Shown here: positions 1 through 59,967 of the stretch, one piece after another
How the letters are laid out: each line of letters opens with the position of its first letter
How positions within the stretch are numbered: the first letter of the stretch is position 1
From: Candidatus Dojkabacteria bacterium
Lineage (GTDB): Bacteria > Patescibacteriota > Dojkabacteria > SC72
Assembly: GCA_040765985.1 (NCBI GenBank)
Contig: JAXGRK010000001.1
Location: 8,513 to 72,512 of the forward strand
Reading direction: 5' to 3'
Length of the DNA stretch: 64,000 nt
Made by a program: the position numbers and the translations under genes
The notes under the pieces: generated by a model
What the model saw: the letters and a program-made list of their open reading frames with translations, nothing else
Told to the model about the DNA's origin: nothing
Databases searched by the model: none

Positions 1-2523
1 CTCAGAGTTTTTAGCTAAAAATAACGGAAACTGATATCCATTTAAAGATACCTCTTTATCAGTTTCCTTGTTGCTAAGTACTTCTCCTCTAATTTCATTA
101 TCTTTCGAAAACATTTTTTCCTGTTCAAAACTTTCTAATATCTCATTGGCTCTTTTAATAACTTTATCCGGTAATCCAGCCATTTTAGCAACATATATAC
201 CGTAGCTTCTATCAGTGCCTCCCTGTACAATCTTTCTTAAAAAGATAACTGTTCCTTCGGTTAGATCCTCTTCAACCAACACATTGTAATTCTTCACTTT
301 ATCTGGAATCTTTTCTGATAACTTTAAAAGCTCGTGGTAATGTGTTGCAAATAAAGTTCTTGCTTTAATATCAGTAACTAAGTATTCCGCTAAAGCCCAA
401 GCAATACTAACCCCATCGTAGGTACTGGTACCTCTACCGACTTCATCTAGTACTATCAAGCTGTATTTGGTAGCATTATTAACAATATTCGCTGCCTCAT
501 CCATCTCTACCATAAAGGTACTTCTACCTCGAGATAGATCATCTGATGCTCCAACTCTTGTAAATATTCTATCAACTATTGAAAGATCCATATTTTTAGC
601 AGGTACATAACAACCTATCTGTGCTAATAGAACTAAACTTGCTACTTGTCGTATATATGTAGATTTACCAGACATATTAGGACCAGTTAAAATAGACATA
701 GAGTTTTTATTAAAATCAAGGTAGGTATCATTTGAAATAAATTCTTCATCGTTTATTCTCTCTACAATTGGGTGTCTTCCTTGTTCAATTTTAATCAAAC
801 CCTCCTTCTCACCCATATCGAATATGTTTGGTTTACAGTAATCTCTTTCTATTGCAATTTTAGCAAAGCCAGATAGTATATCTATAAATGATATATATTC
901 TGACAAATCTTGAAGTTCTTTAATATATTCAATCAAAGATTCTCTAAACTCGGTAAACAGTTTGTATTCTAACCCATTTAGTTTCTCTTGAGCGTTAAGG
1001 ATGATATCTTCTTTCTGTTTTAACTCTTCTGTAATATATCTCTCACAGTTAACCAATGTTTGTTTTCTAATATATCTATCTGGGACTTTTTCTTGCTGGG
1101 CTTTAGTGACCTCAATATAGTAACCAAATACTCTATTAAAACCAATCTTTAAACTGTTGATTCCTGTCTCTTTCTTCTCATCTTCTTCAAATGTTTTGAT
1201 CCATCCCTTACTATCACCAGTCAAACTCCTTAATTCTTCTACTTCTTTGTTGTATGAAGATTTAATAATGCCACCTTCGAGTATAGTTGGAGGAGGAGTA
1301 TCTACAATACAATCATCTATTTGCTTTATTAATTTTTCAAGTACCAAGTCATATTTCGCCAACTCATTACTTATTTCTAAGAAATTTGACACCTCATTTC
1401 GTAAAAGATTAATATTTTCTAAAGAATTTTGAAGTGCTTTAATATCTCTTCCATTTGCTCTCCCTAAACCGATCTTTCCAGTAATTCTACTAATATCATT
1501 TACATTAGATAATAAATCTTTCACCTTATACACACTATTACTATTCGAAACAAACAAATCAATGATATTTAGTCTATCGTTAATCTCTTTTTTATCAATT
1601 AAAGGATTAAGCATCCATGAATACAAGGTTCTTTTACCCATCTGAGTACTGGTTTCATCTATAACAGAAAAAAGAGAACCCGAGATATCACCTGTATAAC
1701 CATTAGAGATAAGCTCAAGATTTCTAATGGTAGCCCTATCTAAAATCATATTAGAAGTTAAGTTCCTTCTTTTTGGTTTTTTGATATGAGATGGCTCCAT
1801 TAACTGGGTTTCTTGAATGTGTTTAATAACCATAGCTATTGCACAAATGCTTACATCTTTACCCTCTAAACCAAGAGCTTGAACATTTGAAATATCAAAG
1901 AATTCTTTAATTAGTTCCTCTGAATATTTTTCATTCTGTAATGTTTTTGGTAGAAATTGGATTGGGAGAGTAGGGAAGTGTAGCTCTTTTTCGTTCTCTA
2001 AAAGCAGTATCTCAACAGGGTCATAAGAGGAAAGAACTGTTTCTATATTCTTTGGAGAGTACTTCATTTCAATCCATATAAATTCTCCTGTGGTAATATC
2101 ACATATTGATACACCCAAAGAATCTTTAGCTTTGCAAAAAGCACACATGTAGTTGCTCTTTACAGAATCAGAGATATCCATTGTCGCAGGAGTAATGATT
2201 CTAGTAACACCCCTTTTGACAATCCCTTTAGCCAACTTGGGATCTTCTAATTGGTCAACTATTACAACACAGTATCCTGCTTTAACTAATTTCGGAAGAT
2301 ATTGATCAATTGCTTTGTGAGGAAAACCAGCTAACGGAGTTGCATTGCTATTTTTATCTCTAGCAGTTAAAGTGATATTTAATGCCTTAGAGGATATCTT
2401 AGCATCCTCACCAAAGGTTTCATAAAAATCACCCATTCTAAAAAGTACTATTTTATCAGGATACTGTTTCTTAAAACGAATATACTGATCCATCATTGGC
2501 GTTTGTTTAATATCAGGTTCCAT
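1..2523 (-). CDS. mutS: DNA mismatch repair protein MutS; the C-terminal end runs off the left window edge
   Basis: Own translation of the minus strand from the ATG at 2523-2521 gives MEPDIKQTPMMDQYIRFKKQYPDKIVLFRMGDFYETFGEDA. Walker A TGPNMSGKSTYIRQ, LDEVGRGTSTYDG and FATHYHEL lie further down. The frame stays open to position 1, so it has no in-window stop and is absent from the ORF track. Confidence 0.95.
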   Translation of the reverse strand, partial: MEPDIKQTPMMDQYIRFKKQYPDKIVLFRMGDFYETFGEDAKISSKALNITLTARDKNSNATPLAGFPHKAIDQYLPKLVKAGYCVVIVDQLEDPKLAKGIVKRGVTRIITPATMDISDSVKSNYMCAFCKAKDSLGVSICDITTGEFIWIEMKYSPKNIETVLSSYDPVEILLLENEKELHFPTLPIQFLPKTLQNEKYSEELIKEFFDISNVQALGLEGKDVSICAIAMVIKHIQETQLMEPSHIKKPKRRNLTSNMILDRATIRNLELISNGYTGDISGSLFSVIDETSTQMGKRTLYSWMLNPLIDKKEINDRLNIIDLFVSNSNSVYKVKDLLSNVNDISRITGKIGLGRANGRDIKALQNSLENINLLRNEVSNFLEISNELAKYDLVLEKLIKQIDDCIVDTPPPTILEGGIIKSSYNKEVEELRSLTGDSKGWIKTFEEDEKKETGINSLKIGFNRVFGYYIEVTKAQQEKVPDRYIRKQTLVNCERYITEELKQKEDIILNAQEKLNGLEYKLFTEFRESLIEYIKELQDLSEYISFIDILSGFAKIAIERDYCKPNIFDMGEKEGLIKIEQGRHPIVERINDEEFISNDTYLDFNKNSMSILTGPNMSGKSTYIRQVASLVLLAQIGCYVPAKNMDLSIVDRIFTRVGASDDLSRGRSTFMVEMDEAANIVNNATKYSLIVLDEVGRGTSTYDGVSIAWALAEYLVTDIKARTLFATHYHELLKLSEKIPDKVKNYNVLVEEDLTEGTVIFLRKIVQGGTDRSYGIYVAKMAGLPDKVIKRANEILESFEQEKMFSKDNEIRGEVLSNKETDKEVSLNGYQFPLFLAKNSE

Positions 2524-2575
2524 TCCCTATTATACAGAAGAATGCATAGTGAAAACTATATGCCTTTGAAAAGAT

Positions 2576-5133
2576 TTACTTTTTCCCAAGAATTATTTTC
2601 GATTCTTCTTCAGATACTAACCTTCTCATATCCTTAATAGTTTTTGGCATTACAGAGACTCCGTAAACACCCTTTCTAACACTGTATCTTACAAGTTCCG
2701 GACTGTCATCACAAAGGACAACAATCTCTTTGGAAGGGGATTTAGAAATATCACACACTGTATCTACTACTTTAAGAGAGTTACCAATTCCTAAATCATA
2801 CTTTCCTTTGGTATCATCAAACTTGTTTCCTTGCATTACTCTAATGATTCTAGGCATATCTATGATTAGTCCATCAATCTTCGAACCAAGTATCTCATCT
2901 GCGAGGATAATATCTGTTGGGTTATCAAGTATTGCATAGATTCTAAATGATGCAGTTCTTCTAAAACCACCTGCTAAAAGTGCCTTCTTGAAAAGATTCA
3001 TAGAAGATACATTCATTGGAGCATAGATACCGATATCCACATTTCTTCTTTTGTTAATATTTCTTACTCTAAGTAATATTTTAATAACTCTACTTAGTAA
3101 CTCTCTATTGGAAAGATAGTGGGCAAGACCATGTACAGAATCATCTATTTCCGAATTTTCAAATTGTTTTCCTTTAGTAAGTGATCTAAAACTAGATACT
3201 CTTAAAGACCCAAGAGCAAGTACTACTTGATTACCCTCGGCCAAATCAACATATTCACATATCTTGTCTCCAATCTGTTTGGAGTATTCTACAAACTTTT
3301 TCTCCTCAACATACGCAAGTAAATGCCTTCCATTCTCAAAAAGAATTTTATCTAAATCTACATAGACAAGTCCATGGGAATTTCCCACTAAATCAACAAT
3401 CGTTTCTTTCTCATCTTGTGGATTGATAAAGACCTTAGTAGCACATGGTGGCAAATTCATATCATGAGGAATCTTGTATTGTTCACCGGTATTTATTTCG
3501 GTTTCTTGAGTTTTCTCTTGTTCATTCTTAAGCAAATCAATTCCTGAAAGAGTTTCTTCTTTGTATGCTTGTATAACTGGATGAGTAGGGGACTGCTCTG
3601 TTTCTTTCTCAACATATATACTTCCCGTATTCCCATCTAACCTTACTAACTGGCCATTTTTAACATAGACGAGGCATTTACTGCACCAACAACGGCAGGG
3701 ATATCAAATTCTCTACACAATATTGCGATATCACTAGTTATACCTCCACTTTCTAATATTACACCCCAGAATTAATTGATTAGAGATTCCATATCTGAGA
3801 AGTACTCTTTTATTAACAGTATGTCCTTTTATTTATACCTTCCAAACTGCTTTTATTCACAACCTTAACACTTCCAACTACGACACCAAAACTTGCCCCA
3901 AGACCTTTGATTAGAAAATCATCAATATTACTTACCTGTTTATTTTCTTCCTCCTTTTCTTTTCTAATTGTACCTCTAGCAACACTAATCAACTTTTCAA
4001 TCAACGGACTATATTCATGTTTATTTCCTGAACAATTTTTTGTGCATTTTGTAGTGTCTTATCATCCAATCTCCCTATACCTTGGTATTTTTCTAAGCAC
4101 CATTTTAAAACCTCTCCAGAGTATCAAAGCTCTTGGCATTTCCTATGCTTTGGCTAAGTACATATCTTTCATACAAGTCTTTGCTCTGCAACACCCATAC
4201 CTTTCCTCCAGACATCACCCACTCAATATTCTGAGCTCGTCTTAATTTGTTTTCAACAATTAAAGATATTTTAGCTATTTCTCTTAGATATCCATCATCT
4301 ACTTTCTGACGATGACTCCATGCAGTAGATATTTTTACTTTCTCAGTACCATCTTTGTTGTTTTGATTCTTGTTAACAACTCTAATTTTCATCAATCCTG
4401 AGGCGAAATTTTTTTCTCTAATACAGATAAATCTCTTTTGTTCAAAAGATATGTATCAGGAGTTAGCTCTCTAAAGATATGGTATCCCTAACCCGAATAC
4501 TGCCTCTACACTCAATTTGGATTGATCCTGAGTGATAGGGTCAACAGTAAAAGCAACACCCGACACCTCTGCTTGAATCATCTTTTGTACAACAACTCCA
4601 AGTTTTACATCTGCCAGATTTATACCCTTAGAAGATGCGTAAGCAACATCATCTGTAAGCAAAGAGGCGTATATTCTTTTAACAGATTCCAGTAATTTTT
4701 TTCCTCCTCTTACATTTAACTCCGTAGAGAAAATCCCTGAGAAAGAAACTTCAGGATTAGAAGGAAATATTACAGATGATCGTACGGATACCCAGGCATC
4801 CGTAAATCCAGAAATTCTTGCATATGCAGACACAATATCTTCAATCTCCTCTATTTCAAATTCAGTTTTAAGTAATGATTTTAATACCTCGGATTGATCA
4901 GGATTATCCTCTTTTTCAAAAAGAGATTTGGCATCTCTAGAAAGAGTTCTTGAAATGAAGTTTTCAAAAACAGAAGACGAAATCACAAAGAAATCTGGTA
5001 TTGGAATATCCATATCCTTTAACTCAAAAAGCGAGAGACCCTTTCTTCCTATTGTAGACTCTTTTAATTTAGAGTAAACATGGTCCTCCCAGAAGTAAAC
5101 AGATCTTTTCTTTTGTGATGTAATATCAGACAT
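2576..5133 (-). CDS. PEP-utilising enzyme (phosphoenolpyruvate synthase / pyruvate,water dikinase-like); reading frame interrupted several times
   Basis: The domains are collinear but split across frames. 4471-5133 is the ATP-grasp PPDK_N-like N-terminus. 4105-4395 reads NIEWVMSGGKVWVLQSK. 3813-4004 reads GLGASFGVVVGSVKVV. An untracked segment at ~3660-3760 reads ESGGITSDIAILCREFDIPAVVGA (swivel domain). 2576-3535 is the PEP-utilizer TIM-barrel C-domain. Confidence 0.8.
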
Positions 5134-7538: not shown

Positions 7539-8397
7539 CTATCTTTTGTTTTTTAAGTATACAACTGTAGAGCTACTCATAAATGCTATCAAAGCAAGTA
7601 ATCCAAACAACATCATTAAGTTGTTACCTATCAATTCATCAAATGTCCCCGCTGCTTGTGGAATATTTTCATCTATTACAGCATCCTCGTTAACACTTCC
7701 CGTAGGAAGTAAGTTACTCTTACTTTCTCATCAAGTAAAGTTTCATTTCCAGCTAAATCAGTTATATATATTGAGAAAACATCTTACCCTCATCTAACTG
7801 TATCCCCTCTATTCTAAAAGCTCCATCTTTATCTGAAAGTCCACCAAAACTCTCAGTACCTCTTTTTACCTCAATTGTTGCATTGGGTTCTGTTGTACCC
7901 AATAAAATGTATGTATCCTTGTTCGTTTCTTCTCCGTATTTAAGCGTTACAGTATCCTGATTTGGTGAAGTTCTATCGATTACTCCAGTCATTATATCTG
8001 ATTTTGAAGATATATTTCTATTTGGGAACCCTTAACACCCGCTACAGAAAAATTATAACTACCTTCATCCTCTGCGATATATTCATAGGAGAACTTTGAA
8101 TCATCATCTACTTTAACATCTCCAAACTTTTCATCACCTAAAAATATGAAAACATTATCATATCCAGCAGCACTACCTTTAATTAAGATTTTATCTCCAT
8201 TAGTTAGTAGATGTAATTTCTTCTAATTTTGGTGATTCTAAAGTTGATCGAGTAGGGTTCTTCTCTAAATTTAATATATGAAAAATACCGAAAGCAACCA
8301 AAAGTACTCCTAAACCAATGAATACAGAACCCACCAATCTAGAAATTCTCTCTTGATTTGCAGGTACGGGTTGTTTAATCTCAACTTAACTAATCAT
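7539..8397 (-). CDS. Membrane-anchored surface protein with Ig-like beta-sandwich repeats; frameshifted
   Basis: Own translation shows an N-terminal TM (LVGSVFIGLGVLLVAFGIF) and repeats such as GDKILIKGSAAGYDNVFIFLGDEKFGDVKVDDDSKFSYEY and TTEPNATIEVKRGTESFGGLSDKDGAFRIEGIQL. The C-terminus reads IPQAAGTFDELIGNNLMMLFGLLALIAFMSSSTVVYLKNKR. At least three frame breaks. Confidence 0.55.
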
Positions 8398-10304: not shown

Positions 10305-10309
10305 AATAT

Positions 10310-17482: not shown

Positions 17483-18170
17483 TATAAAAGAATTTCAAAT
17501 TAAAATAGGAGTAACCTTTGTTAATAAGAGTAATTTAATTGAGGCACTTACTCACAGATCATATTTAAATGAACATAAAGAGATTAACTCTCATAATGAA
17601 AGATTGGAATTTCTTGGAGATGCTGTCTTAGAGTTAGTTGTTTCTGATTATCTTTTTCATAAATATCCCCACAGACCTGAAGGTGAGTTAACAAGTTTTA
17701 GATCTGCTTTAGTTAAAACAGAAAGTTTAGCAGATACTGCAAAAGAAATTGGTATTGGTGATAACATCCTATTATCAAAAGGGGAAGAGGATACAGGTGG
17801 TAGAACTAAAAACTTTCTTCTTGCAAATACTTTTGAGGCCATTATTGGTTCAATTTATATTGATCAAGGATATGACTCCTGTAAAGAATTTATACATAGA
17901 TTTTTAATCAAGAAATTGGATAGTATTGTTAAACATAGATTAGATATTGATAGTAAAACAAAAATACAAGAGATCATTCAACAAGATTTTAAAGTAACAC
18001 CTGTATATGAGGTAACCAATGAAAATGGTCCCGACCATGATAAAGAATTTACTGTAGTAATTAAGGTTAATGATAAAGTTATAGGGAAGGGAGTAGGGAG
18101 TAGTAAGCAGAGGGCCGAAGAAGAAGCAGCAACAAAAGGAATAGAGTATTTAGAAAGTAAATCAAATTAA
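17460..18170 (+). CDS. rnc: Ribonuclease III
   Basis: [32 protein letters not shown] signature plus a C-terminal dsRBD ([12 protein letters not shown]). Confidence 0.95.
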
Positions 18171-20265: not shown

Positions 20266-21286
20266 CTTTTAAAGCCAATCCAATTGCTACAGAATATGAA
20301 GGTCCATATTTTGCAATTAGATTTTTAAATTTATTTTCTACTAATACATTTAACCACGGATTTGCAATTTGTGCATCAACCCCTAGTGATTTAGAAACAT
20401 ACTCTGTTAAACCCGGGAGTAGGGCACCATCTCCATTTAAAAGATATGACATAGGAGGGGCACTCATTGTCTTGTTTTTGTAAACTCTACACCTCTTCTA
20501 ACCTCTATCATAATTGATTCAACAATAGGCATCAGAGCGCTGTATATCTTTACCATCAGCAGCATTCTGTAGTAATCCATAACCAAGTTTAAATTCTTCT
20601 GCCCGGTTATAATCAAAACTAAATTTGTTCACAATGGCTTGTGTTAAAGAATCAGAACCAATGGATATACTTTGAGAAAAAACTAATGCACCATTAGTCA
20701 TAATACTCATATCTGTACTATTCGCACCAAAATCTAACATTACACAATCTTTTTTACCCATAGATCTAAACATTGCTCTACCCATTGCAACAGATTCTGT
20801 TTCTATTGCAATTAGTTCTAAATTGGCAAAGTTAGCAACATTCATATATATATCAACAATCTTTCTTGGTGCAGCAACAAGTAACACTCTAGGAGCGTTT
20901 CTCTCCTCGTTAAAACCAATTACAACATAACTCATCTGTACCTCATCTATTGGTACAGGTATATACTGTTTGGCTTCATAATATAAAGCTTGTTTAAGTT
21001 CTTCTTTTTTAACACCTGGAAACTCTAGAAATCTTGTAAATACAGAAAACTCAGGTAAAGCCATTACAACTTTAGAATTCCTTATCTTAGAATTTGAATA
21101 GAGTAATTTAAGAGCTTCACCTAATTTCTTTTGATCTTGTCTCTCTTCACTGTTAATTACTCCTTTTGGGGTTAACTGAGTACCTAAGTTGACAAGCTGT
21201 GGCTTGGAAAGTATGTTCTTTAATTCTACGGCTTTTACACTATGTGTTCCAAAATCTATGCCTACATGGTCGGGCAGCTTTGCCAT
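20258..21286 (-). CDS. pilM: Type IV pilus assembly ATPase-fold protein PilM, split by two frameshifts
   Basis: VGIDFGTHSVKAVEL actin-like N-terminus (ORF 20519-21286). The middle segment MPIVESIMIEVRRGVEF is in another frame. The C-terminus LLNGDGALLPGLTEYVSKSLG is ORF 20258-20467. One break lies in an A5 run near 20480. Confidence 0.85.
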
Positions 21287-25982: not shown

Positions 25983-26942
25983 TGTTTAGAAAAAATCCCA
26001 CAGATTGTTTAGCAATAGATATCTTAACATATTCATCAATTTCTTTATCAAGTATATACTCATCTAAATTATCTTTTCTACTACACATACCCTCTGGTAA
26101 CTTCTTATCATTACAGTAGCTATTTATCTGTTCTTGATTGATAATCGTACCCATTGGTAAGTAAGAACAAGACATAACATAGGATTTAGAGATATCAATT
26201 TCAGAGATATTTTGGTATTTATTACAATCTCTTCTAAAGATTCATTAAGATAGTAGAATTTATCTACTCTAATGTTCTTTTCCATAAGTACATTATTAAC
26301 ACTTGTAAAAATATCCATTACAATCTCATGTTTTCAACAGATATAGAATCAATTTTTACATTAAGAAAATTAATATATTTTATTTCTATACCTTCTAGAG
26401 GATTTCTTGAATTGTATAAATAATAACCCTTTATCTCTTTATCAACATCTTTCTGTAATCTTACATTCTTTATATATATATTCAACTCATCAAACGCAGA
26501 GTAATTTTATTAACACCCTCATCATCTATTAACTCCATTGATATATTAGATACTTTATACGATATAGGGAAAAGAGAGTATATTTAAATGTAATATGCAT
26601 AGGAACCTTTAAAGTAGTATCTAATACTGGATCACTAATATTTAATATCTTAGAATTTTGACACACTTCTAAAGGTATTTGTATTGGTATATTCATTGTT
26701 TAATACCCATAAATCTAAACAGTTCTTTCCATCCCTTTCCTCTGTTTTCAATACAAAAGTATCACACTGTATTGATACAGTAAAAAGTTTCTTCTCTACT
26801 GTACATATATCCATTAAAGATTCATAACTAGTTAGTTTAGGAGTATTTCCAAACCATCCCATTAAATATGAAAGGAGTAGGGATGTAAGGATAACGAATG
26901 TTAAAAGAAGAGATACGTATAATGTTTTTTCTTAATAGTCAT
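25975..26942 (-). pseudogene. Hypothetical membrane-anchored protein; heavily fragmented reading frame
   Basis: ATG at 26942 gives MTIKKK, then after a shift TLYVSLLLTFVILTSLLLSYLMGWFGNTPKL (ORF 26650-26862). Further fragments are 26124-26318 and 25975-26175. No family recognised. Confidence 0.35.
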
Positions 26943-34622: not shown

Positions 34623-35391
34623 CTATCCTAGCAAGAATATTCTGTTTAGAATATCTGTAACTGGCTGATTAAATAGAAATAGTAGTACTAAAGAGCCGTA
34701 CATAAAGGGGAGTAGGGGTATCTGGGATTTAAGTGAGGCATTTTTAAGTATGATATTTACAATTGAAAAAAGGGAAGTAGATATTAGAAATATATATATA
34801 AATCCTGTATATAAAGTAATATCTAAAAAGATACTCAACCCTATTAGTACTAAAATATCACCTATACCGAATGGTTTTTTCATAATTTTCCCTATGGCAA
34901 GTATAAAGATAAAGAGTATCAATCCAATGATAAGGGCTGTTTGTGGTATAGAATTTTCAATTAGTAAAGTGACGAAGAAGAAAAAACAACAGAGAATATT
35001 AAAAATGTATTTACCAATATTTGGGGTACTCCTTTATATATCCTATCAAAGTACGAAAACGAGAAAAAAATATCAATACTATATATAAAATATATGGTAA
35101 GGAGAAAAAATATATACTACTAAAACCAACACCAAGAAGTATTTCAGATATTGGGTAATATATTGGTACTTTATATCCACATTTTGAACATTTACCTTTA
35201 AATATTATAAAAGATATGACAGGTATTAACTCATATGAAGTTAAATACTTTCCACACTTCTCACAGTGAGAGCCCTTAATAAAGATATCTGGATATTTAT
35301 ATCCATTATCTATTCTATATAGTAGGGCGTTAAAAAAACTGGCTAGTACTAAGCCAAGTATAAATGTTAAGAATGTAAAATATATATGCAT
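34623..35391 (-). CDS. pilD: Prepilin peptidase PilD (A24 family), split by a frameshift
   Basis: ORF 35011-35391 holds the N-terminal domain with CEKCG...CSKCG. ORF 34623-34922 holds the C-terminal A24 half (FGIGDILVLIGL). They are bridged near 35000-35020. Confidence 0.85.
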
Positions 35392-40833: not shown

Positions 40834-41890
40834 TTATCTATCTGAGTAATACCTTACCCTCCTATATAAATCTAAAACTCTAACAAGCATATATTTAACT
40901 CTAGAGTAGGGGAAATCCATACATCTTTGATATCTTACTAGATAACCCCCAAAGCCCCTCTTAAAATTTGAATAACCATATCTTGGTGCTGTGGGCTTGT
41001 ATTTCTCATCAGGTAGTACATCCCAAGAATTAAAAATATTTAAATCCCTCTGCCTGTGCTTGTAAAATACATTCCCATCTAAGTAACATTGGTGCTCTTA
41101 ATTTACTTTCGATACCTGTTTGACAGCTATACAAGCAGGATACTTCATCTCCAAAAAGGACAGTACTAACATTGCAAGTGGTTGACCTTTGTATTCCGCT
41201 ATTGCTAAGCGTATCTCATTATCATTTCCCAAATATTCAAACTGTTTAATATAGTATTGTGAATTGTTAATAACAAAATCCTTTTATCTGAACTCTCCTG
41301 TAAATATTTTGTAAAGAGTTCCCACTCATTAACATCTTTAGAAAATCTTACTGTAACACCAGACCTTTTTGCTTTACGAATATATGTGGGATAGTTTTTT
41401 CCCATACCGTGTTCTAAACACCATTTCATTTGATCATCTTGGGTACCCTGAACTAAATCTAAAAACCAAGGCGTCTCTGGTTGAACATAGTTAATACATT
41501 TTTGAAAGCCTCCATACTTAGTGGTACCTCTGAAACAGAATTACTACTTTGTATGCTAGGATCTATCTTCAAAAAAAGATACTCTTTATCTTTAAAATAC
41601 TCCCTTAACTTGTTTAACACATCTTCGTACACAATTCTGCTTATCTCTTTTAATATTGGACCTCTTGAGCAGTATATATATTTCCCAAATGTTTGAGATA
41701 CTTCATAACAGTAGGCAGTAGCTATCAATTCATCTCCGTTGTAAAAGCCCAACCTATATGTTTTTCTTCCTAAACCACTTTCTTGATAAATACTCCAATT
41801 ATACGATTGCATAAAATTACAGTTAGGACTACGCTTAACAAAATCATCAAAAACCTTTTGTTTATCCAACTCTTTGATATCTAAATTCAT
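40834..41890 (-). CDS. FemAB-family peptidoglycan bridge aminoacyltransferase, fragmented
   Basis: ORF 41459-41890 reads NFMQSYNWSIYQESG...YCSRGPI (FemAB N-terminus). 41205-41429 and further fragments continue in other frames. The end coordinate is uncertain. Confidence 0.7.
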
Positions 41891-42701: not shown

Positions 42702-44624
42702 ATGGTAAAAAAGAGTGATTACGGTGCCTCAAATATCCAAGTTTTACAAGGATTAGAAGCAGTAAGAAAAAGACCAGCCATGTACATTGGGTCTACAGAT
42801 AGAGTTGGTTTACACCATATATTTACGGAGATATTAGACAACTCTGTAGATGAAGCAATAGCTGGATACTGTAGTAGAATATGGGTCAAACTTTTCAAAG
42901 ATGGTTCCATCTCTATTAAAGATAATGCTAGGGGTATTCCAGTAGAGATGCATCCCCAAACAAAGGTATCTACACTTGAAACAGTTATGACCAATCTTCA
43001 TGCAGGTGGTAAATTCGATGATGGTGCTTACAAAGTATCAGGTGGTTTACACGGAGTAGGTATGAAGTGTACAAACGCTCTCTCAGAGTGGATGATTACA
43101 ACTGTAAAAAGAGATGGAGGTATATATCAACAGGAGTATAGAAGGGGTATCCCACAGCATCCTGTTAAAAAGGTTGGAAGTATACAGAATGAAACTGGTA
43201 CAGAGCACAGATTTTTACCAGATGATCAGATTTTTACTGAAACTGATTTTGATTTTAAAGAGATTGTTAGAAAGTGTAGACAACATGCATACCTAACTGC
43301 CGGCTTAAGAATATCTATTGAAGATGAGAGAGTAGGGGAGGGTCACAGTAACAAGATATACGACCTTTACTTTGAAGATGGTATTAAATCGTATGTTCTG
43401 TTTATGAACATAGATGAGAAATTAGTTAACGAAATACCCTTCTATGTTAACAAAGAGCAGGACGAAGTAGTTGTAGAGGCAGCTATACAGTACACAAATA
43501 GTATGGATGAGAATGTTAAATGTTACACCAACAACATTATCAATCCAGAGGGAGGAACTCATTTAGCTGGTTTCAGAACAGCGCTTACAAGTGCAATAAA
43601 TACATATGCTCAAAAATCGGAACTCTTAAAGGGCTTAACTACAACTCTAAACGGTGATGATGTAAGGGAGGGGTTAACTGCTGTTGTTTCTGTTAAAGTC
43701 GCAGACCCTCAGTTTGAGGGACAGACTAAGATTAAACTAAATAACCCAGAGGTTAAAAATGCCGTTTCCAAAGTAATTAGAGATCAACTCCTCATTTACT
43801 TTGATGAACATCCTAAAGAGGCAAAAGCCATAATTGATAAAGCAATACTCTCTTACAAAGCAAAAGCTGCTGCTAAGGCAGCAAGAGATGCTGTAATAAG
43901 GAAGAGTGCATTAGAGAGTACAACACTCCCTGGTAAATTAGCAGACTGTATCAGTAGTGATCCAAAAGATTGTGAACTTTACATTGTAGAGGGAGATTCT
44001 GCAGGTGGAAGTGCAAAACAGGGAAGGGATAGACATACACAGGCAGTATTACCACTTAGAGGTAAGATAATTAATACACATAAGTATAGAGTAGACAGAG
44101 TATTGGGTAATAACGAATTTAAGGATATTACAACAGCACTAGGTGTAGGGATAGGTACTACTTTAGATATTAGTAAATTGAGATATCATAAAGTAATAAT
44201 TATGAGTGACGCTGATGTAGATGGTTTACATATAACGACATTAGTATTAACCCTGCTATTTAGATTCTTTAAGCCCTTAATAGATGGCGGATATATATAT
44301 GTAGCACAGCCACCATTACATAAGGTAGAAATTGGTAAAAAGAAATACTACTTTTTAAATGATAATGAGAAAGATATATTTGTTAAAAAAGCAAAAGAAA
44401 ATGGTAAAACTCCTGTAGCTAACAGATTTAAAGGATTAGGAGAGATGAACCCTGAACAGTTATGGGAAACAACTATGAATCCAGAAACAAGAGCATTAAA
44501 ACAGGTTAATATAGAAGATGCAGAGGAAGCAGAAAAGGTATTTGAGATGTTAATGGGTAATGAGGTTCCCCCAAGAAGAAGATTTATACAGAAATACGCT
44601 AAGAAGGCAATTTTAGATATTTAA
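42702..44624 (+). CDS. gyrB: DNA gyrase subunit B
   Basis: YGASNIQVLQGLEAVRKRPAMYIG, GGLHGVG, LYIVEGDSAGGSAKQGRDR and IMSDADVDGLHI. Confidence 0.98.
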   Translation: MVKKSDYGASNIQVLQGLEAVRKRPAMYIGSTDRVGLHHIFTEILDNSVDEAIAGYCSRIWVKLFKDGSISIKDNARGIPVEMHPQTKVSTLETVMTNLHAGGKFDDGAYKVSGGLHGVGMKCTNALSEWMITTVKRDGGIYQQEYRRGIPQHPVKKVGSIQNETGTEHRFLPDDQIFTETDFDFKEIVRKCRQHAYLTAGLRISIEDERVGEGHSNKIYDLYFEDGIKSYVLFMNIDEKLVNEIPFYVNKEQDEVVVEAAIQYTNSMDENVKCYTNNIINPEGGTHLAGFRTALTSAINTYAQKSELLKGLTTTLNGDDVREGLTAVVSVKVADPQFEGQTKIKLNNPEVKNAVSKVIRDQLLIYFDEHPKEAKAIIDKAILSYKAKAAAKAARDAVIRKSALESTTLPGKLADCISSDPKDCELYIVEGDSAGGSAKQGRDRHTQAVLPLRGKIINTHKYRVDRVLGNNEFKDITTALGVGIGTTLDISKLRYHKVIIMSDADVDGLHITTLVLTLLFRFFKPLIDGGYIYVAQPPLHKVEIGKKKYYFLNDNEKDIFVKKAKENGKTPVANRFKGLGEMNPEQLWETTMNPETRALKQVNIEDAEEAEKVFEMLMGNEVPPRRRFIQKYAKKAILDI

Positions 44625-50661: not shown

Positions 50662-51414
50662 ATGAAAATATCTTTGGTTATACCAACATACAAAAAACTT
50701 AAAGAAGTGTTAGACCAGTTAGAGAGGTTGTATGGATACCTTTCTAGAGTCAACCCTGATTTTGAACTCATCTTCGTAGTAGATGGGTATGTTGATAATA
50801 CTAAGGATATATTAATGCAATATATTAAAGAGAACAGATTAAAGAAAGCAATAGTTTTAGGTTATGTTAAAAACAAAGGTAAAGGGTATGCTATTAGATA
50901 CGGTATGAAAAGAGCTTCTGGAGATGTAATTGGTTTTGTAGATGCTGATACCGATATCCAAATTAGAACTTTAGCGTACGCATTAAAAGAGATTAAAAAA
51001 GATGATGTTATGGCTGTAATACCTTCTAAATTACATAAAGATTCTAATATTGAAATGACTTTAAAAAGAAAGATTTACTCTTACGGTTTAATATCTATTA
51101 ACAAAATATTTTTAAGATTACCTAAAAACACTACAGATGTAGGTTGTGGTCTTAAACTATTTAAGAAAGAGTTGATTAAAAGAATATTACCTAACTTAAA
51201 GATAAATAGGTTTGCAATAGACTCAGAGATATTAAACGAGATTGGTAAAGTAGGGTATAGTGTATCTGTAATACCATTCTTCTTAAACAAAAATAGGTCT
51301 GATTCTACATCAGCAAATATTAAAGAGGTTATTACTATGTTAAGAGATATCTTTGAGATATCTATGAAAGAGAGTAGGGTATATAACTCTAAATTACTCA
51401 AAGCGTATAGATAA
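50662..51414 (+). CDS. Family 2 glycosyltransferase (polyprenol-phosphate sugar transferase-like)
   Basis: KISLVIPTYKK, FVVDGYVDNT and GFVDADTD (DxD). Confidence 0.85.
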   Translation: MKISLVIPTYKKLKEVLDQLERLYGYLSRVNPDFELIFVVDGYVDNTKDILMQYIKENRLKKAIVLGYVKNKGKGYAIRYGMKRASGDVIGFVDADTDIQIRTLAYALKEIKKDDVMAVIPSKLHKDSNIEMTLKRKIYSYGLISINKIFLRLPKNTTDVGCGLKLFKKELIKRILPNLKINRFAIDSEILNEIGKVGYSVSVIPFFLNKNRSDSTSANIKEVITMLRDIFEISMKESRVYNSKLLKAYR

Positions 51415-55351: not shown

Positions 55352-55423
55352 CTTGGTTTTGGTACCTGGGATTATCTTTTACTTGTCTTTTGACATTTAA
55401 AAACCCCATTTACCACACAACCA

Positions 55424-55435
55424 CATCACACGCTA
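55424..55435. repeat. Right arm of the 12-bp inverted repeat bounding the GC-rich islet
   Basis: catcacacgcta is the exact reverse complement of 54724-54735. Confidence 0.8.
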
Positions 55436-55536
55436 GAGTCTTCTAGGATTAAATATTTATTAAAAATATATATCCTACTGATGAGTCTAAAGATATTGAA
55501 AAATATTAAAGACGAAAAGACAAAAAATATTACATT

Positions 55537-55565
55537 GAGGACATCTTAGGATGTCCTCTTTTTTT
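55537..55565. terminator. Rho-independent terminator, probably serving the convergent genes on both sides
   Basis: gaggacatc-ttag-gatgtcctc (9-bp stem) followed by TTTTTTT on the + strand. It lies exactly between the + ORF end region and the stop of minus gene 55564. Confidence 0.7.
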
Positions 55566-56387
55566 ATTTAAACAGTTTTCTAAACAATTCAAATACCTTC
55601 ATAAATAGAGTAGGGGGAAATATACTAAGTATATGTACTCCCACCTTTTGTATATTCCATATAACATATTCTCTTAAAGTTGGTTTAATATTTAATTCTT
55701 TATTAGCCCATTTACGAATATCATTGGTCTTTCTAAAATGATCTAACATCTTAGATTGAGACTCTGTTTTATACGTCATCCTATACTTTAAAACTCTATC
55801 CTCTAAATTATGAAACTCTCCTTTAGTACTAAGTATTAAGAAAAATTTAACATCTCAGCCTTCCACATATTCTCAGGATACAAACCAATATCTTCTACAG
55901 TACTTTTTCTTAAAAGTTACTGCTGGATATTAAAGGTTGAAAAAGAAATCTGTTCTTTTTAATATCTCTATCATCAATAGCGTACTCTCTATGACCAGTA
56001 ACAGTACCTTCTCATCAATAATGTCTATTTGACCACCTACTGCTACACAGTTAGGATTAGACTCAAGATACTGCACCTGTTTTCAATACGAGTAGGATAC
56101 ATAACATCATCCGCATCCATTCTAGCTATATATTTCCCTTTAGATTTCCCTTATACCAACATTTATTACATTACCTAAACCGTTTTGTTTTTCTACAGGT
56201 ATTACTGTTATCTTCTCCCCATACCTCTTTAATATCTCTAAAGTCCTATCCTCTGGTTATCATCTACCACAATTATCTCAATATCCTTATAAGTTTGATC
56301 TAAACAGCTATCTAAAGACTCTTTAATATACCTCTCTCCGTTATGTACAGGTATTACTATTGAAACCAAGGGATTACTTTTTTCCAT
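55564..56387 (-). pseudogene. Family 2 glycosyltransferase, reading frame broken many times
   Basis: ATG at 56387 gives MEKSNPLVSIVIPVHNGERYIKESLDSCLDQTYKDIEIIVVDD. Later come GKYIARMDADDVMYP (DxD) and ORF 55564-55779, each in different frames. Confidence 0.7.
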
Positions 56388-56663
56388 CTTTTCTCTCTTG
56401 AATAAATTTAATGGTGGTATGTACCAAAAGTAATATCAATGAATACCCAAAGTATGATAGTAGGATTTAAGAAATATATTACAGAAATAGAATCAAAATT
56501 AGTATTTGAAATATCCCACGCCTGTTTCCATCCATTTATACTTACTCTTGTATCTTTTTCTAATACTGATAGAAGTACACCATTTCTTTTTACTGCTACC
56601 CATCTGAAGACTTTGCTTGTAGTACTAGAAGATTCTCTTTGTCCTTAGGTATCTCTTCTTTGG

Positions 56664-59600
56664 TTACTTTTGTAATGTTGATTGAGATGATTTAAATACA
56701 TTCCTCATCTCATACTCAGAGTACTTTTCTTGTTTCTGTTGAATATACATTAGATTACTCCAAGAGGTAGGATACTCCATAAATACGAATTCGTTTAATA
56801 CATTCTCTGTTATTAGTTTGTAGCTACTACTACCGTATATTACGTTTAATAGCTTAGTATTATTTGCTCCATTTATTACATTTAAGTAAGAAGATGTTCC
56901 TGAGTCTCTTAACATCCTGAAACCAACATTTATCCTCTTTATCATATATTAGGCATAAAGAGGAGGGGATATTAGAGATACTCTTTCCTTTCCAATATAC
57001 AAAGTATTTTGTATTAGGTTTTGTAATTAAAAGATTTGCCGTTTGATTGATGTAGTCATTAGCTACTTTTGGTATAACCCATCTTTAACAGAAACTTCAT
57101 ATATCTTACTTTCAGAATCTAATCTGTTTGGTTGCCAAGCGAGATACTCTGAATTACTACCATTGTAAGAGTATCCCGATTGTCCATTTATAATTGGGAT
57201 ATGAATAGCATATGTATTACCATCATCTAAAAATACATCACTGGGTCTCCATTCCTCAGATGAAGACGAAGCAATCATTGGATTTACCAATGGAGCATAC
57301 TGTATCTCAACACTTCTAAACAGAACCTCTGAGGGTGTATCCTTTTTAATATTTGTTGCATAAAGTATTAGAGATACTCTCTCTCCCTCATTTATAACTG
57401 TGTCAAGGATATCTACACTTCCAAAAGATTATCAGTTAAAAAGAACTTCTCTTTATTTAGGCATGTCTTCTTACTTTCTGAATATATACAGTAACCAGGG
57501 TAATTACCTTTCTCTGTTTCCCAATTAAGTTTTACTCTTAAGATACCCATTGTTGTTGTATCTATTGGGATTCCAGTGTATACACAAGGGATTCCGTTGT
57601 TCCTTCTATACTAAGCCCAGATGATATCTCCTGGTGTTACAAATGTACTTTCAAGAACTTTTGTCACCAGAGCAATCACTACCTTTTGGTTTGAATTAGA
57701 AGGTATCATATCTATAGATCTGAAATCAGATTCTAATACTCCATATGTTGATGTGTTTTGATTAAAATCCATTCTCAGTTGTAACACCTTCCGACATCTT
57801 CGCTTTACTAAATACTGACCCCCCAATTACAAAGTAGTTGTATTCTCCATCAAACCTTCTAAATGGTTTAACTGAGTTATCCCCTTGTACATATGGATAT
57901 GATGGATAGAGGAGTAGTAGTTCCATTTGAATATATTGCTTCTATTGGAAGAGTATTAACAACATCTCTTGTTAAATTAGAAAACATATATGTACTGTAT
58001 CCTCGATACTCAAAATCTCCTACAATTTCATTGTTTTCAATTCTTAAATTCTTCAAATCCATTTCCAAGGGAGAAAGAGTAGGGTACCTAGATGCATCCT
58101 TAATGAAAGTATCCATTGAAGATATTTCAGAAAGTGATTCTGTAAAAACCCTCTCTGTCAAAGAAGGTACTTCAAAAAGAGAAAGCTTACCCTCTGACCA
58201 AACAAGTTTGTAATCAGAGAAAATACTTTTTACCTTCTCCTCATCTAAATCGAAAGCATATCCCTCCATTTCTACACTTGTATCAAAAAGAACATAGGAA
58301 ACATCATATCTTTGCATTAAATAAAGGAACTCTTCTTTGTTTTCAGATCTAACAGTATTTAATATCTCTAGTAATGCTTTCTCTCCAACATTTGAGCCAA
58401 CTGCTAAAGACATATCCATTACAGGATTGGGTATTATGTAAGATATAAATTGGGAGCCCCAGAAGCCCCATTCATACTCCCTAAAGTAGTTATTGTTAGA
58501 TGGAGGAGCGTAATATATTCTCCCCCTATCATCATTTTCCTCAAGATACTCTCCCAATTCAAAATACTCTTGGGGAATACTTACTGCCGCCCTATCTGCA
58601 AATATATCTCCTCTAAACATATACTCTGCGTATACCAATTGTAATATACATAGTAAAACAAAGGATGAGAGTATGTATAACCGTTTAGGAAATTTTTTAC
58701 CAACAAAAAATGCAAAAAACTTTATTAAATATACAGCTCCAAAAGTAGACAGTACTGTAATACATATTAAATATATCTGACCTAATTTAGAAAATGGCCA
58801 TCTTAATACCTGTTTGAATAGTGGGATATTTTCCTGCAACCATCCAAATACCTCTCCTAACGGTGGATTAAGAACCTTAATTAAGTATAGGGAGCCAAAT
58901 CCTAAAATACCCCAAAAAAGTAATTTGTAATTCTTTTTAAATATTCCAAATATTAATGCTATTAAAGAAAGAAATACTGGAATTAAACCAATTACTTTGT
59001 AAAAATCATATGACTGATATACTTCGGCCATAGGAAAGAGATATTTGTTTCCATCCATATCAAAGAGAGTTCTGTTATACATTCTTGCAGAGTTTATTAA
59101 TGTCTGAAAATCTGTTTCTAAATCTATTACACTAGCAGTTATTGTCCTATTTGTATATGAATCAATAATGTCTGAACTTGTTGATAGGGTGTAATGAATA
59201 AATGGTAATATCCAAAATAGTTGTGTAATTAAAAATACCCCCAGTGTAATCAAAATGTTTTTTACCTCTTTCTTTTTTTCTTTTTTTGAAATGAGATTAG
59301 TAAACAGTGTAAAAGCAACTAAAAAGATTAAATCAATAAAAAAGAGAGTCGCTATTACACTTGTTGCAGAGAAGAGTATGGAGGAAACAAACAGAAAGAA
59401 AAGGTTCCCCCAACTATTTTTCACAGAATATCTATAGATTGCTAAAAGTATTAAAGGCAAAAAACCGAAATTAACAATATATGGAGCCATGTTCTGATAG
59501 AAGAGCCACATAGTCCAAAGCGTAGAGAAATATATTACACCACTTAATAAGTACCCCCAATTAAAGTATCTTTTTAATTTACTTTTTTGGATTAAAATTC

Positions 59601-59967
59601 TTGTTAAACAAGCAATAGATACAGATCCAATTGCCATTGAGAAAAAGTAAAACAGTTGACCAATTAGCCAACTAGGTAAGAATGTATCAAAAACAGAATA
59701 TATACCCGATCTAAACACATCTGCCTGTTCACTCTCAGATGCAAATCCCAATACTCTGTATCCTCTCCATGCTGGAGATTCTAAATATCTGGATACAGAT
59801 AGAGTAGGGTTTAGCTCTGGTGAGTAGTTATCATTAGATAACAGGTACTTACCTGGTTGTAAAGAGAGTATACATATTGATAGTAAGAGTAGGATTAATA
59901 GTATTTCAGGAAATCTTTTTTCAAGAAATTTAACAATATTAATATATTTAACCTTAGGTAATTTCAT
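56664..59967 (-). CDS. Large polytopic GT-C-type glycosyltransferase-like membrane protein (DUF3367/AftD-like by recollection). The N-terminal 696 aa are intact; the C-terminal third is frameshifted
   Basis: ORF 57877-59967 has about 12 or more TM helices and an N-terminal DNYSPELNPTLSVSRYLESPAWRGYRVLGF motif. The extracytoplasmic continuation is recoverable from fragments 57611-57826, 57063-57290 and 56664-56945. Confidence 0.6.

What the first reader, a model, noticed from the sequence alone, without database searches (positions are those of the whole stretch)
1968..59809. Strand-polarised, frame-independent 8-mer GAGTAGGG: candidate FtsK/SpoIIIE-orienting (KOPS/SRS-like) or Chi-like chromosome signal
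Reading the + strand I find 16 exact GAGTAGGG copies. Their start positions are 1968, 3583, 8250, 18091, 20417, 22169, 24245, 26875, 27617, 34710, 40904, 43330, 51372, 55608, 58077 and 59802. There is only one exact copy on the - strand (63949-63956, at the far right edge). The base before the motif is a purine in 14 of 16 copies.

The copies sit inside genes of both orientations and in all three frames. The motif reads as P-T-L in mutS and the GT-C gene, P-L-L-P in pilD, F-P-Y-S in femAB, R-V-G-E in gyrB and G-V-G-S in rnc. Codon or protein constraints therefore cannot explain it.

For a G-rich 8-mer in DNA this AT-rich, my rough estimate is below one copy per strand; this was not formally computed. 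Known polar signals are strikingly similar: E. coli KOPS GGGNAGGG and B. subtilis SpoIIIE recognition sequence GAGAAGGG.
Basis: partly seen in the sequence, partly recalled or inferred. Interest (0 to 1): 0.8.

Follow-up and report, generated by a model that had tools for sequence, protein, structure and literature searches.

The report
Polar 8-mer pointing to a dif site
A short DNA word, GAGTAGGG, is repeated about every 4 kb in one orientation along this candidate-phylum (Dojkabacteria) chromosome and reverses exactly at a recombination site beside a Xer recombinase gene, which is how the signposts that guide chromosome unlinking at cell division behave in well-studied bacteria.

Summary
GAGTAGGG occurs 16 times on the + strand and once on the - strand, against 0.2-1.9 copies per strand expected under Markov orders 0-4. 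It is the most strand-biased 8-mer in the window.

The window comes from a Candidatus Dojkabacteria (WS6, CPR/Patescibacteria) genome. Its right end holds a XerD-like tyrosine recombinase gene (62097-63515, -). About 200 bp upstream of that gene lies a 28-bp dif-like site (63721-63748).

In relatives, every exact motif copy but one points toward this site from both sides. The polarity holds to -18 kb on one side and +80 kb on the other. The lone - strand copy at 63949 is the first copy of the opposite arm.

The word belongs to the GAGNAGGG family of the B. subtilis SpoIIIE recognition sequence. The best explanation is therefore a KOPS/SRS-type guide that steers a DNA translocase to Xer/dif.

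Two things remain open:
- No FtsK gene could be examined with these tools.
- Base skew at four-fold sites does not switch at the dif-like site, and on the window side the motif strand is the C-rich one.

This counts against a Chi signal or a compositional by-product. It also leaves the replication geometry unresolved. I class the finding as a new member of a known kind.

The parts
1968..1975 (+). GAGTAGGG copy, antisense in mutS (reads P-T-L)
3583..3590 (+). GAGTAGGG copy, antisense in the open frame of an unknown - strand gene
8250..8257 (+). GAGTAGGG copy in a stretch without long ORFs
18091..18098 (+). GAGTAGGG copy, sense in rnc (RNase III, + strand)
20417..20424 (+). GAGTAGGG copy between two - strand pilus-cluster genes
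22169..22176 (+). GAGTAGGG copy, antisense in the glycine-rich protein gene
24245..24252 (+). GAGTAGGG copy, antisense in an 840-aa gene of unknown function
26875..26882 (+). GAGTAGGG copy in a short open frame or intergenic stretch
27617..27624 (+). GAGTAGGG copy, antisense in a 653-aa gene of unknown function
34710..34717 (+). GAGTAGGG copy, antisense in the out-of-frame open stretch 34623-35033 that may be the rest of pilD
40904..40911 (+). GAGTAGGG copy upstream of pilB, in a short - strand open frame
43330..43337 (+). GAGTAGGG copy, sense in gyrB (+ strand). It is absent at the same place in the closest relative L001, which shows turnover
51372..51379 (+). GAGTAGGG copy, sense in a GT2 glycosyltransferase gene (+ strand)
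55608..55615 (+). GAGTAGGG copy in a stretch with short ORFs only
58077..58084 (+). GAGTAGGG copy, antisense in a 696-aa gene of unknown function
59802..59809 (+). GAGTAGGG copy, antisense in the same 696-aa gene
62097..63515 (-). Xer-type tyrosine recombinase gene (472 aa). All six catalytic residues R-K-H-R-H-Y are present, with a ~95-aa insertion relative to E. coli XerD
   Evidence: orthologues lie next to the same site in more than 50 loci
63550..63557 (+). Inner arm: AAGTAGGG, one mismatch. It is the last copy pointing rightward, 164 bp from the dif-like site, and is exact GAGTAGGG at this place in about 20 related loci
   Evidence: (inverted repeat I6)
63721..63748 (+). dif-like core site ACCGCATATAA-GGATGA-TTATACTCGGT. 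It has 11-bp arms that are 9/11 symmetric and a 6-bp spacer. The arms are invariant or nearly so in 55 loci, while the spacer varies
63879..63931 (+). Conserved DNA blocks between the dif-like site and the outer arm: ATTAGCA, a perfect DnaA-box-like TTATCCACA (63890-63898), and ACTATAGG / ACTATGGG repeats. Their role is unknown
63949..63964 (-). Outer arm: GAGTAGGG on the - strand followed by AAGTAGGG in tandem. These are the first copies pointing leftward, 201 bp from the dif-like site, at a conserved position in relatives

Best explanation
GAGTAGGG (preferred form RGAGTAGGG, a member of the GAGNAGGG family) is a chromosome-polarity signal of the KOPS/SRS type in Candidatus Dojkabacteria.

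Shown: copies are scattered about every 4 kb through genes and spacers, whatever the direction of the gene. All point toward one place. That place is a 28-bp dif-like recombination site 200 bp upstream of a XerD-like tyrosine recombinase gene at the right end of the window. On the far side of the site the orientation is reversed.

Inferred mechanism: a double-strand DNA translocase at the division septum reads the orientation of the word. By analogy this would be FtsK, acting through a sequence-reading winged-helix gamma domain. The translocase pumps DNA until it reaches the Xer-bound dif site, where chromosome dimers are resolved.

Two conserved inward-pointing copies 150-200 bp on either side of the site would load or steer the motor onto it from both directions.

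The shown steps are over-representation, polarity, the convergence point, the recombinase and its site, and conservation across the clade. The reader protein and the recombination reaction are inferred.
For: Enrichment and polarity in the window:
- 16:1 copies against about 1 expected.
- It is the most skewed 8-mer in the window.

Conservation across the clade:
- In 37 loci around gyrB, oriented like the window, the count is 53:1. Restricted to the 29 Dojkabacteria-like loci L001-L029 it is 50:1.
- Positions differ between species, so copies turn over while orientation is kept.

The flip at the recombinase:
- In 80 metagenome loci centred on the recombinase, the window side has 0 copies pointing away and 33 pointing toward the site.
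- The other side has 62 copies pointing toward the site. Most of its 20 opposite copies sit at -38 to -64, which is the inner arm on the window side of the site.
- Outside the arms the counts are 19:0 on the far side and 30-32:0 on the window side, at equal densities of about 1 per 11-12 kb.
- Polarity persists to 80 kb from the site on the window side (L125, L126) and to about 18 kb on the other side, including copies antisense in - strand genes (L127).
- The non-permissive orientation is depleted: 1 observed against about 7-9 expected, summed over the window, gyrB-locus and Xer-locus sets under Markov orders 1-4.

The convergence point:
- It holds an 11-6-11 site whose arms are invariant in 55 loci, including two whose recombinase is only 42-43% identical. 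Its spacer varies.
- The adjacent recombinase is most similar to XerD, XerC and XerA and keeps R-K-H-R-H-Y.

Comparison with known signals:
- The published KOPS prediction criteria are a skew of at least 90% and at least 1 copy per 40 kb in the dif region, plus over-representation. All are met. The B. subtilis SRS family is given there as GAGNAGGG (PMC3384302).

Independence from composition:
- On the window side the motif lies on the strand that is C-rich at four-fold sites, so compositional bias works against it.
Against: - No FtsK gene, gamma domain or any other reader was found. None lies in the 64-kb window or in any held flank (and the Pfam lists). The rest of the genome could not be reached.
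- Known KOPS lie on the leading, G-rich strand, and dif sits at the skew switch. Here four-fold-site skew keeps the same sign from -19 kb to +80 kb around the site. On the window side the motif strand is the C- and A-rich one.
- On the far side of the site, the over-representation of the exact word above a Markov-4 expectation is modest: 19 observed against 14 expected.
- Counts from related loci are not phylogenetically independent.
- Only one of the two expected polarity switches was seen.
Confidence: 0.75

Rival explanations
1. Chi-like signal. The word, or its complement, would be read on single-stranded DNA by an AddAB/RecBCD-type helicase-nuclease. It would be oriented so that enzymes entering at broken replication forks meet it in the active orientation.
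For: Chi sites are also over-represented, polar 5-8-mers spread through genes (PMC3384302). The density of 1 per 4 kb is Chi-like. A recombination gene cluster, ruvCAB, lies next to the flip point.
Against: Chi polarity must follow replication direction. Here the polarity reverses at the dif-like site, while two proxies of replication direction keep the same sign across it. The proxies are four-fold-site GC and AT skew, and the strand that carries most coding DNA.

The sequence is a KOPS/SRS-family word and resembles no known Chi. Conserved inward-pointing copies flank the dif-like site at fixed distances, which has no rationale for Chi. No AddAB/RecBCD domain was seen among the window proteins scanned.
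Confidence: 0.06
2. A polar guide for a different motor or process than FtsK. One candidate is the DUF8128 plus TrwB/VirD4-like ATPase of the FtsK-HerA superfamily, encoded 4-7 kb from the dif-like site in every genome. Another is an SMC-type or other chromosome-organising system.
For: The TrwB-like ATPase is conserved upstream of yebC-ruvCAB next to the site. No canonical FtsK was seen in any held DNA. The decoupling from skew is unlike classical KOPS.
Against: The word is nearly identical to the words read by FtsK and SpoIIIE gamma domains. According to PMC3384302, most bacteria possess an FtsK orthologue. The held DNA is only about 15% of a genome. The TrwB-like protein gave no Pfam match at E <= 0.001 to the FtsK motor or gamma-domain models.
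Confidence: 0.12
3. A by-product of strand compositional bias, codon usage or shared ancestry of repeats, with no function of its own.
For: Half of the copies share one reading frame built from favoured codons, CCT ACT. On the far side of the site the motif strand is also the coding and G-rich strand, and a Markov-4 model already predicts 14 of the 19 copies.
Against: The window shows 16 copies against at most 1.9 expected under orders 0-4. On the window side the word sits on the C-rich strand and mostly antisense to genes. The opposite orientation is depleted. The flanks are not conserved, so it is not a repeat element. Copies turn over between species while orientation is kept.
Confidence: 0.03
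4. A DNA uptake sequence for the type IV pilus and competence machinery encoded in the window, or a restriction-modification target kept in one orientation.
For: The window holds a large type IV pilus cluster. A Type ISP restriction enzyme gene occurs in one relative.
Against: From general knowledge, not tested here, uptake sequences are not replichore-polar and do not reverse at a dif site. Restriction targets are avoided rather than enriched 10-fold or more. The Type ISP gene is an insertion in one genome only.
Confidence: 0.02

Closest known systems
B. subtilis SRS (SpoIIIE recognition sequence, GAGAAGGG; family GAGNAGGG) and E. coli KOPS (GGGNAGGG)
   Same: It is an 8-mer with the same G-rich skeleton; GAGTAGGG is GAGNAGGG with N = T. 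It is over-represented, at least 90% polar near dif, spread through genes irrespective of transcription, and its arrows converge on the dif site.
   Different: T is strongly preferred at position 4, and a purine is preferred in front. The density is higher, 1 per 4 kb against about 1 per 12 kb. The host is an uncultivated CPR lineage of about 0.73 Mb and 33% G+C. On one side of dif the word lies on the C-rich strand, and the skew does not switch at dif. The reader protein was not seen.
Lactococcus XerS/difSL and Helicobacter XerH/difH single-recombinase modules
   Same: From general knowledge of these modules, a recombinase gene sits immediately next to its own dif site, and polar guide motifs converge on it. 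The arms of the site here are nearly palindromic, as expected for one recombinase. The L. lactis guide motif is GAAGAAG (PMC3384302).
   Different: This recombinase is closer in sequence to XerD, XerC and XerA than to XerS or XerH. It is 472 aa long, with a ~95-aa insertion and an N-terminal extension. The site is 28 bp, ACCGCATATAA-GGATGA-TTATACTCGGT, and keeps the canonical inner ATAA-N6-TTAT. Whether a second Xer exists elsewhere in the genome is unknown.
Chi sites (E. coli GCTGGTGG, B. subtilis AGCGG, L. lactis GCGCGTG)
   Same: They are over-represented, polar short words at kilobase spacing.
   Different: There is no sequence resemblance. The polarity here follows the dif-like site rather than the compositional proxies of replication direction.
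AIMS (architecture-imparting sequences, skewed octamers)
   Same: It is a skewed octamer whose polarity defines the two chromosome arms.
   Different: AIMS are defined statistically on whole genomes, with skew rising toward the terminus. That could not be computed here.

Membership tests
KOPS/SRS (FtsK/SpoIIIE-orienting polar sequences) | Significant over-representation over a Markov background | tested here: met
   Window: 16 observed against 0.19-1.9 expected under orders 0-4. gyrB loci: 50 against 4-12. Window side of the Xer loci: 32 against 2.4-4.7.
KOPS/SRS (FtsK/SpoIIIE-orienting polar sequences) | Skew of at least 90% and at least 1 copy per 40 kb in the dif region (criteria of PMC3384302) | tested here: met
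   16 of 16 copies point to the site over the 62 kb next to it, at 1 per 4 kb. The criteria were read.
KOPS/SRS (FtsK/SpoIIIE-orienting polar sequences) | Polarity of the two arms converges on the dif site | tested here: met
   The flip lies within a ~400-bp spacer that holds the dif-like site, across dozens of loci.
KOPS/SRS (FtsK/SpoIIIE-orienting polar sequences) | Sequence belongs to the G-rich octamer family GGGNAGGG / GAGNAGGG | tested here: met
   By direct comparison, GAGTAGGG is GAGNAGGG with N = T (Table 1 of PMC3384302).
KOPS/SRS (FtsK/SpoIIIE-orienting polar sequences) | Lies on the leading strand, with the switch coinciding with the GC-skew switch | tested here: inconclusive
   Four-fold-site skew keeps one sign from -19 kb to +80 kb around the site. 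On the window side the motif strand is C- and A-rich. Housekeeping genes there are co-oriented with the motif. The replication direction is unresolved without a whole genome.
KOPS/SRS (FtsK/SpoIIIE-orienting polar sequences) | Genome encodes FtsK/SpoIIIE with a winged-helix gamma domain that binds the word and orients translocation | not testable with these tools
   No FtsK was found in the window or in any held flank. The rest of the genome could not be fetched. Binding needs an experiment.
Xer/dif chromosome dimer resolution | Tyrosine recombinase of the Xer type with the catalytic R-K-H-R-H-Y residues | tested here: met
   The best solved relative is E. coli XerD (5e-24). NCBIfam XerD, XerC and XerA models match at 4e-51 to 5e-40, but below their trusted cut-offs. 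All six catalytic residues align.
Xer/dif chromosome dimer resolution | A 28-bp core site: two 11-bp inverted arms with inner ATAA/TTAT around a 6-bp spacer, with arms conserved and spacer free | tested here: met
   ACCGCATATAA-GGATGA-TTATACTCGGT at 63721-63748. One arm is invariant and the other nearly so in 55 loci. Spacer positions 13-16 vary.
Xer/dif chromosome dimer resolution | Single site per chromosome, in the replication terminus region | tested here: inconclusive
   There is one site per locus, always next to xer. No skew switch is seen within -19 kb to +80 kb. Copy number per genome was not testable.
Chi (AddAB/RecBCD regulatory sequence) | Orientation follows replication direction, on the leading strand of each replichore | tested here: not met
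   The motif reverses at the dif-like site, where compositional skew and the majority gene strand do not reverse.
Chi (AddAB/RecBCD regulatory sequence) | Cognate AddAB/RecBCD/AdnAB enzyme encoded | not testable with these tools
   None was seen among the window proteins scanned.
DNA uptake sequences (DUS/USS) | Abundant word with no replichore polarity, present on both strands | tested here: not met
   16:1 in the window and 115:1 summed over the window, gyrB-locus and Xer-locus sets, with the reversal at the dif-like site.

The most novel reading that the evidence does not exclude
In Dojkabacteria the segregation axis and the replication axis are naturally uncoupled. The segregation axis is the dif site plus the convergence of the guide motif. 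The replication axis is marked by base skew and gene-strand bias.

Replication forks would pass through the dif site, so the guide motif sits on the compositionally 'lagging' strand for at least 80 kb on one side. The alternative is that the mutational skew of this lineage is inverted relative to all studied bacteria.

Either case would give a natural experiment that separates selection on translocase guidance from replication-linked bias.
Probability: 0.35. Interest if true: 0.8.

Novelty: new member of a known kind. Interest (0 to 1): 0.6.

Why it matters
Guide motifs for FtsK-family translocases have been established experimentally in only a few cultivated bacteria (E. coli and relatives, B. 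subtilis, L. lactis). This finding gives a clear in-silico case in the Candidate Phyla Radiation, where cells are tiny, genomes are about 0.7 Mb and nothing is known about chromosome segregation.

It supplies three concrete items:
- the word, RGAGTAGGG;
- the dif site, ACCGCATATAA-N6-TTATACTCGGT;
- the recombinase, all conserved across a class-level clade.

These can be tested in vitro with heterologously expressed proteins, and they can orient and validate CPR genome assemblies.

The guide polarity reverses at dif while compositional skew does not. If that holds genome-wide, this lineage would separate two forces that are confounded in model bacteria. It would also show that selection for guidance to dif alone can maintain the polarity.

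Tried and rejected
1. Origin of replication at the flip point. It was considered because the spacer is AT-rich, holds a perfectly conserved TTATCCACA, and the window's skew looked origin-like. It was rejected for four reasons. DnaA boxes are not enriched (19 against 25.5 expected) and there is only one perfect box. No dnaA or dnaN lies within 10-20 kb in any genome. The skew does not switch there either. The spacer holds a dif-type site next to a Xer gene.

2. A structured RNA in the spacer. Rfam found only tRNA-Val in the window, and the alignment fold gave -2 kcal/mol.

3. Expression-linked codon bias as the cause of the four-fold-site asymmetry. It was considered because all housekeeping genes share the motif strand. 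It is unlikely to be the whole cause, because unknown, transporter and glycosyltransferase genes on that strand show the same bias.

4. De novo ranking of all polar 7- and 8-mers around dif. The result was dominated by coding-strand words from orthologous genes and is not usable as it stands.

5. Looking up the window's own GyrB gave no exact match. The window's Xer was found only on a 1.7-kb contig.

6. Fetching dnaA or ftsK of Dojkabacteria was not possible. Protein searches list only the best 120 relatives of the query, and no Dojkabacteria query for these proteins was available. The positions of dif in three large contigs, at fractions 0.72, 0.74 and 0.53 of contig length, gave no consistent clue to the origin.

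7. A scan of viral contigs for the dif-like site, to look for elements that exploit Xer, gave no hit.

8. Literature searches for the word, and for FtsK/dif in Dojkabacteria or CPR, found nothing relevant.
Full report
**Observation.** There are 16 GAGTAGGG copies on the + strand and one on the - strand at 63949. Dinucleotide-preserving shuffles give 1.14 on average for both strands together, and never more than 5. Markov models of order 0 to 4 built on the + strand predict 0.19 to 1.9 copies. Among all 8-mers of the window it has the largest strand difference, and AGAGTAGGG is 9:0. The base in front is a purine in 14 of 16 copies. Nothing else in the flanks is conserved, so it is not part of a longer repeat.

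The copies lie in genes of both directions. They read sense in rnc, gyrB and a GT2 gene, and antisense in mutS and several long - strand genes. The claim of frame independence is overstated. Eight copies share the frame xxC-CCT-ACT-Cxx in - strand genes, and the frame GAG-TAG-GGx is forbidden in co-oriented genes because TAG is a stop codon.

**Source.** The window's GyrB finds 77-97% identical proteins in metagenome-assembled genomes labelled Candidatus Dojkabacteria / candidate division WS6, some of them mislabelled Saccharibacteria. Two are near-complete single contigs of 724,554 and 733,750 bp. The window (33% G+C) is therefore about 9% of a ~0.73-Mb CPR genome. It carries the following genes:
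- mutS;
- a type IV pilus cluster;
- clpP, a ClpX-like AAA+ ATPase gene, and rnc;
- gyrB and gyrA;
- one tRNA.

**Conservation of polarity.** The 37 loci around gyrB are all oriented like the window. In them the word occurs 53 times on the gyrB strand and once on the other. Positions differ from species to species. For example, the gyrB copy of the window is absent from the 97%-identical relative L001. Copies are therefore gained and lost while orientation is kept.

**The flip point.** The last gene of the window (62097-63515, - strand) is a tyrosine recombinase. Its best solved relative is E. coli XerD (5e-24). NCBIfam XerD, XerC and XerA models match at 4e-51 to 5e-40, below their trusted cut-offs because of a ~95-aa insertion and an N-terminal extension. 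All six catalytic residues R-K-H-R-H-Y align.

I fetched 80 metagenome loci centred on orthologues of this gene.
- On the window side of the gene there are 0 copies in one orientation and 33 in the other.
- On the far side there are 62 copies in the reversed orientation.
- Most of the 20 apparent exceptions on the far side sit at -38 to -64 from the start codon. That puts them still on the window side of the spacer.

The arrows (5'-GAGTAGGG-3') thus converge on a ~400-bp spacer upstream of the recombinase gene. The window's single - strand copy (63949, followed in tandem by a one-mismatch copy) is the first copy of the opposite arm. The one-mismatch copy AAGTAGGG at 63550 is the last copy of the window's arm. 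The two form the inverted repeat found.

Outside these arms the exact word is 19:0 on the far side and 30-32:0 on the window side, at equal densities of 1 per 11-12 kb. Had the window's polarity simply continued, about 20 copies in the window's orientation would be expected on the far side. None is seen.

The polarity holds out to 80 kb from the site on the window side (mutS loci of the 724-kb and 760-kb contigs). On the far side it holds to about 18 kb, including copies that lie antisense in - strand genes (L127). Summed over the window, gyrB-locus and Xer-locus sets, the exact word is 115 toward the site and 1 away. The reverse orientation is depleted against expectation. These counts are not phylogenetically independent.

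**The site.** The alignment of the spacer from 42 sequences shows a few sharply conserved blocks. One is a 28-bp imperfect palindrome, in window coordinates 63721-63748: ACCGCATATAA-GGATGA-TTATACTCGGT. It has 11-bp arms that are 9/11 symmetric and a 6-bp spacer.

In 55 loci one arm is invariant and the other nearly so, while spacer positions 13-16 vary freely. Two of these loci have a recombinase only 42-43% identical to the window's. This is the signature of a tyrosine-recombinase core site, and it keeps the inner ATAA-N6-TTAT of canonical dif sites. A recombinase gene immediately next to its own, nearly palindromic site is, from general knowledge, the arrangement of the single-recombinase systems XerS/difSL and XerH/difH.

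**What it most likely is.** PMC3384302 gives criteria for KOPS prediction: over-representation, at least 90% skew in the dif region, and at least one copy per 40 kb there. It lists the B. subtilis motif family as GAGNAGGG. The word here is that family with N = T. It is 100% polar over the 62 kb next to the dif-like site and occurs once per 4 kb.

The most economical reading is a KOPS/SRS-type guide that steers a septal dsDNA translocase to Xer/dif. The conserved inward-pointing copies 150-200 bp on either side of the site would deliver the motor from both directions. The steps that are shown are statistical and comparative. The reader protein and the reaction are inferred.

**What does not fit.** Known KOPS lie on the G-rich leading strand, and dif lies at the skew switch. 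That is not what is seen here.

At four-fold degenerate sites in the window:
- + strand genes have GC skew -0.32 and AT skew +0.10 on their coding strand;
- - strand genes have 0.00 and -0.085 (Mann-Whitney p = 4e-4 and 2e-5).

The motif strand is therefore C- and A-rich whatever the gene direction. The same holds 57-80 kb from the site.

On the far side, once genes of both directions were available, the result was as follows (L127 and L128):
- genes pointing to the site have GC skew about 0;
- genes pointing away have GC skew -0.5 to -0.6.

The same absolute strand is thus G- and T-rich on both sides of the site. The compositional asymmetry does not switch where the motif switches. The strand carrying most coding DNA also stays the same across the site.

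Yet every housekeeping gene on the window side is co-oriented with the motif. These are tig, clpP, clpX, rnc, gyrB, gyrA, tRNA-Val, hisS, pheST, rplT, rpmI, infC and thrS. By the essential-gene rule, that would make the motif strand the leading one.

I could not resolve this conflict. dnaA, ftsK and the rest of the genome were out of reach. The positions of the site in three large contigs give no consistent clue.

A polarity that follows dif and not the compositional asymmetry is what a guide to dif predicts. It is not what a Chi site or a mutational by-product predicts.

**Rivals.**
- Chi-like signal: rejected on polarity and sequence.
- Compositional or codon artefact: rejected, because on the window side the word is enriched against the local composition and mostly antisense to genes.
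- Uptake sequence or restriction target: rejected on polarity and enrichment.
- Another motor: this remains open. A DUF8128 plus TrwB/VirD4-like ATPase of the FtsK-HerA superfamily is conserved 4-7 kb from the site.
- Origin of replication at the flip point: considered because of a conserved perfect DnaA box at 63890-63898. Rejected for four reasons: there is no box cluster, no dnaA lies nearby, there is no skew switch, and a Xer/dif module is present.

**Novelty and verdict.** No paper in the held library mentions this word as a signal, or Xer/dif/KOPS in Dojkabacteria or CPR. It is a new member of a known kind: a KOPS/SRS-family guide motif with its Xer/dif module in a candidate phylum. The apparent uncoupling of guide polarity from base skew is the part a specialist would find surprising, and it needs a whole-genome check.

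Noticed in passing
window 1-64000; L125, L126, L127, L128: Proxies of replication direction disagree. Four-fold-site GC and AT skew and the majority gene strand mark the window's - strand as leading. All housekeeping genes (tig, clpP, clpX, rnc, gyrBA, hisS, pheST, rplT, rpmI, infC, thrS) lie on the other strand. None of these proxies switches at the dif-like site.
   Followed up: partly
window 63879-63931: Conserved DNA blocks lie between the dif-like site and the outer motif arm: ATTAGCA, a perfect DnaA-box-like TTATCCACA, and two or three CCYRTAGT repeats. ATATGTTAYRAT lies just beside the site. No conserved RNA fold was found. They may be accessory or regulatory binding sites.
   Followed up: partly
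L039 3284-5758; L119 3211-5691; L047 57-2156: One or two paralogous ~800-aa ATPases with DUF8128 plus TrwB/VirD4-like domains (FtsK-HerA superfamily) are conserved 4-7 kb from the dif-like site, upstream of yebC-ruvC-ruvA-ruvB and a conserved ~275-aa protein of unknown function.
   Followed up: partly
window 34623-35391: The prepilin peptidase gene pilD looks split. The A24 N-terminal domain lies in 35011-35391 (-). An adjoining open stretch at 34623-35033, in another frame and without a Pfam match, may be the remainder. This could be a frameshift, a pseudogene or an assembly error.
   Followed up: no
window 7200-10300 and 55400-57900: Two stretches of 2.5-3 kb contain only ORFs shorter than 110 aa in a genome that is otherwise densely coded. 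Each holds one motif copy.
   Followed up: no
window 14531-16791: A 323-aa ORF has only a weak, C-terminally cut AAA domain. It sits directly upstream of a 342-aa ClpX-like ORF that shows no match to an N-terminal zinc-binding domain. This may be a split or rearranged gene.
   Followed up: no
window 49161-49285 and 21336-23381: A 21/42-bp tandem array lies in a short - strand ORF. CACCACC runs (GGT repeats on the - strand) rank among the most strand-biased words of the window; their position was not mapped, and the glycine-rich domain gene at 21336-23381 is the likely source.
   Followed up: no
L129 6096-9167: A Type ISP restriction-modification gene (N6_Mtase, MmeI_Mtase, Type_ISP_C) and a PIN-domain gene are inserted in the far-side flank of one relative only.
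   Followed up: no
L119, L125, L018 (JBMNHC010000001.1) compared with the window: Motif density differs several-fold between species: 1 per 4 kb in the window's genome against roughly 1 per 10-20 kb in the 724-kb genome. In the latter, other GAGNAGGG variants are less strictly polar, which suggests the preferred variant drifts within the clade.
   Followed up: partly
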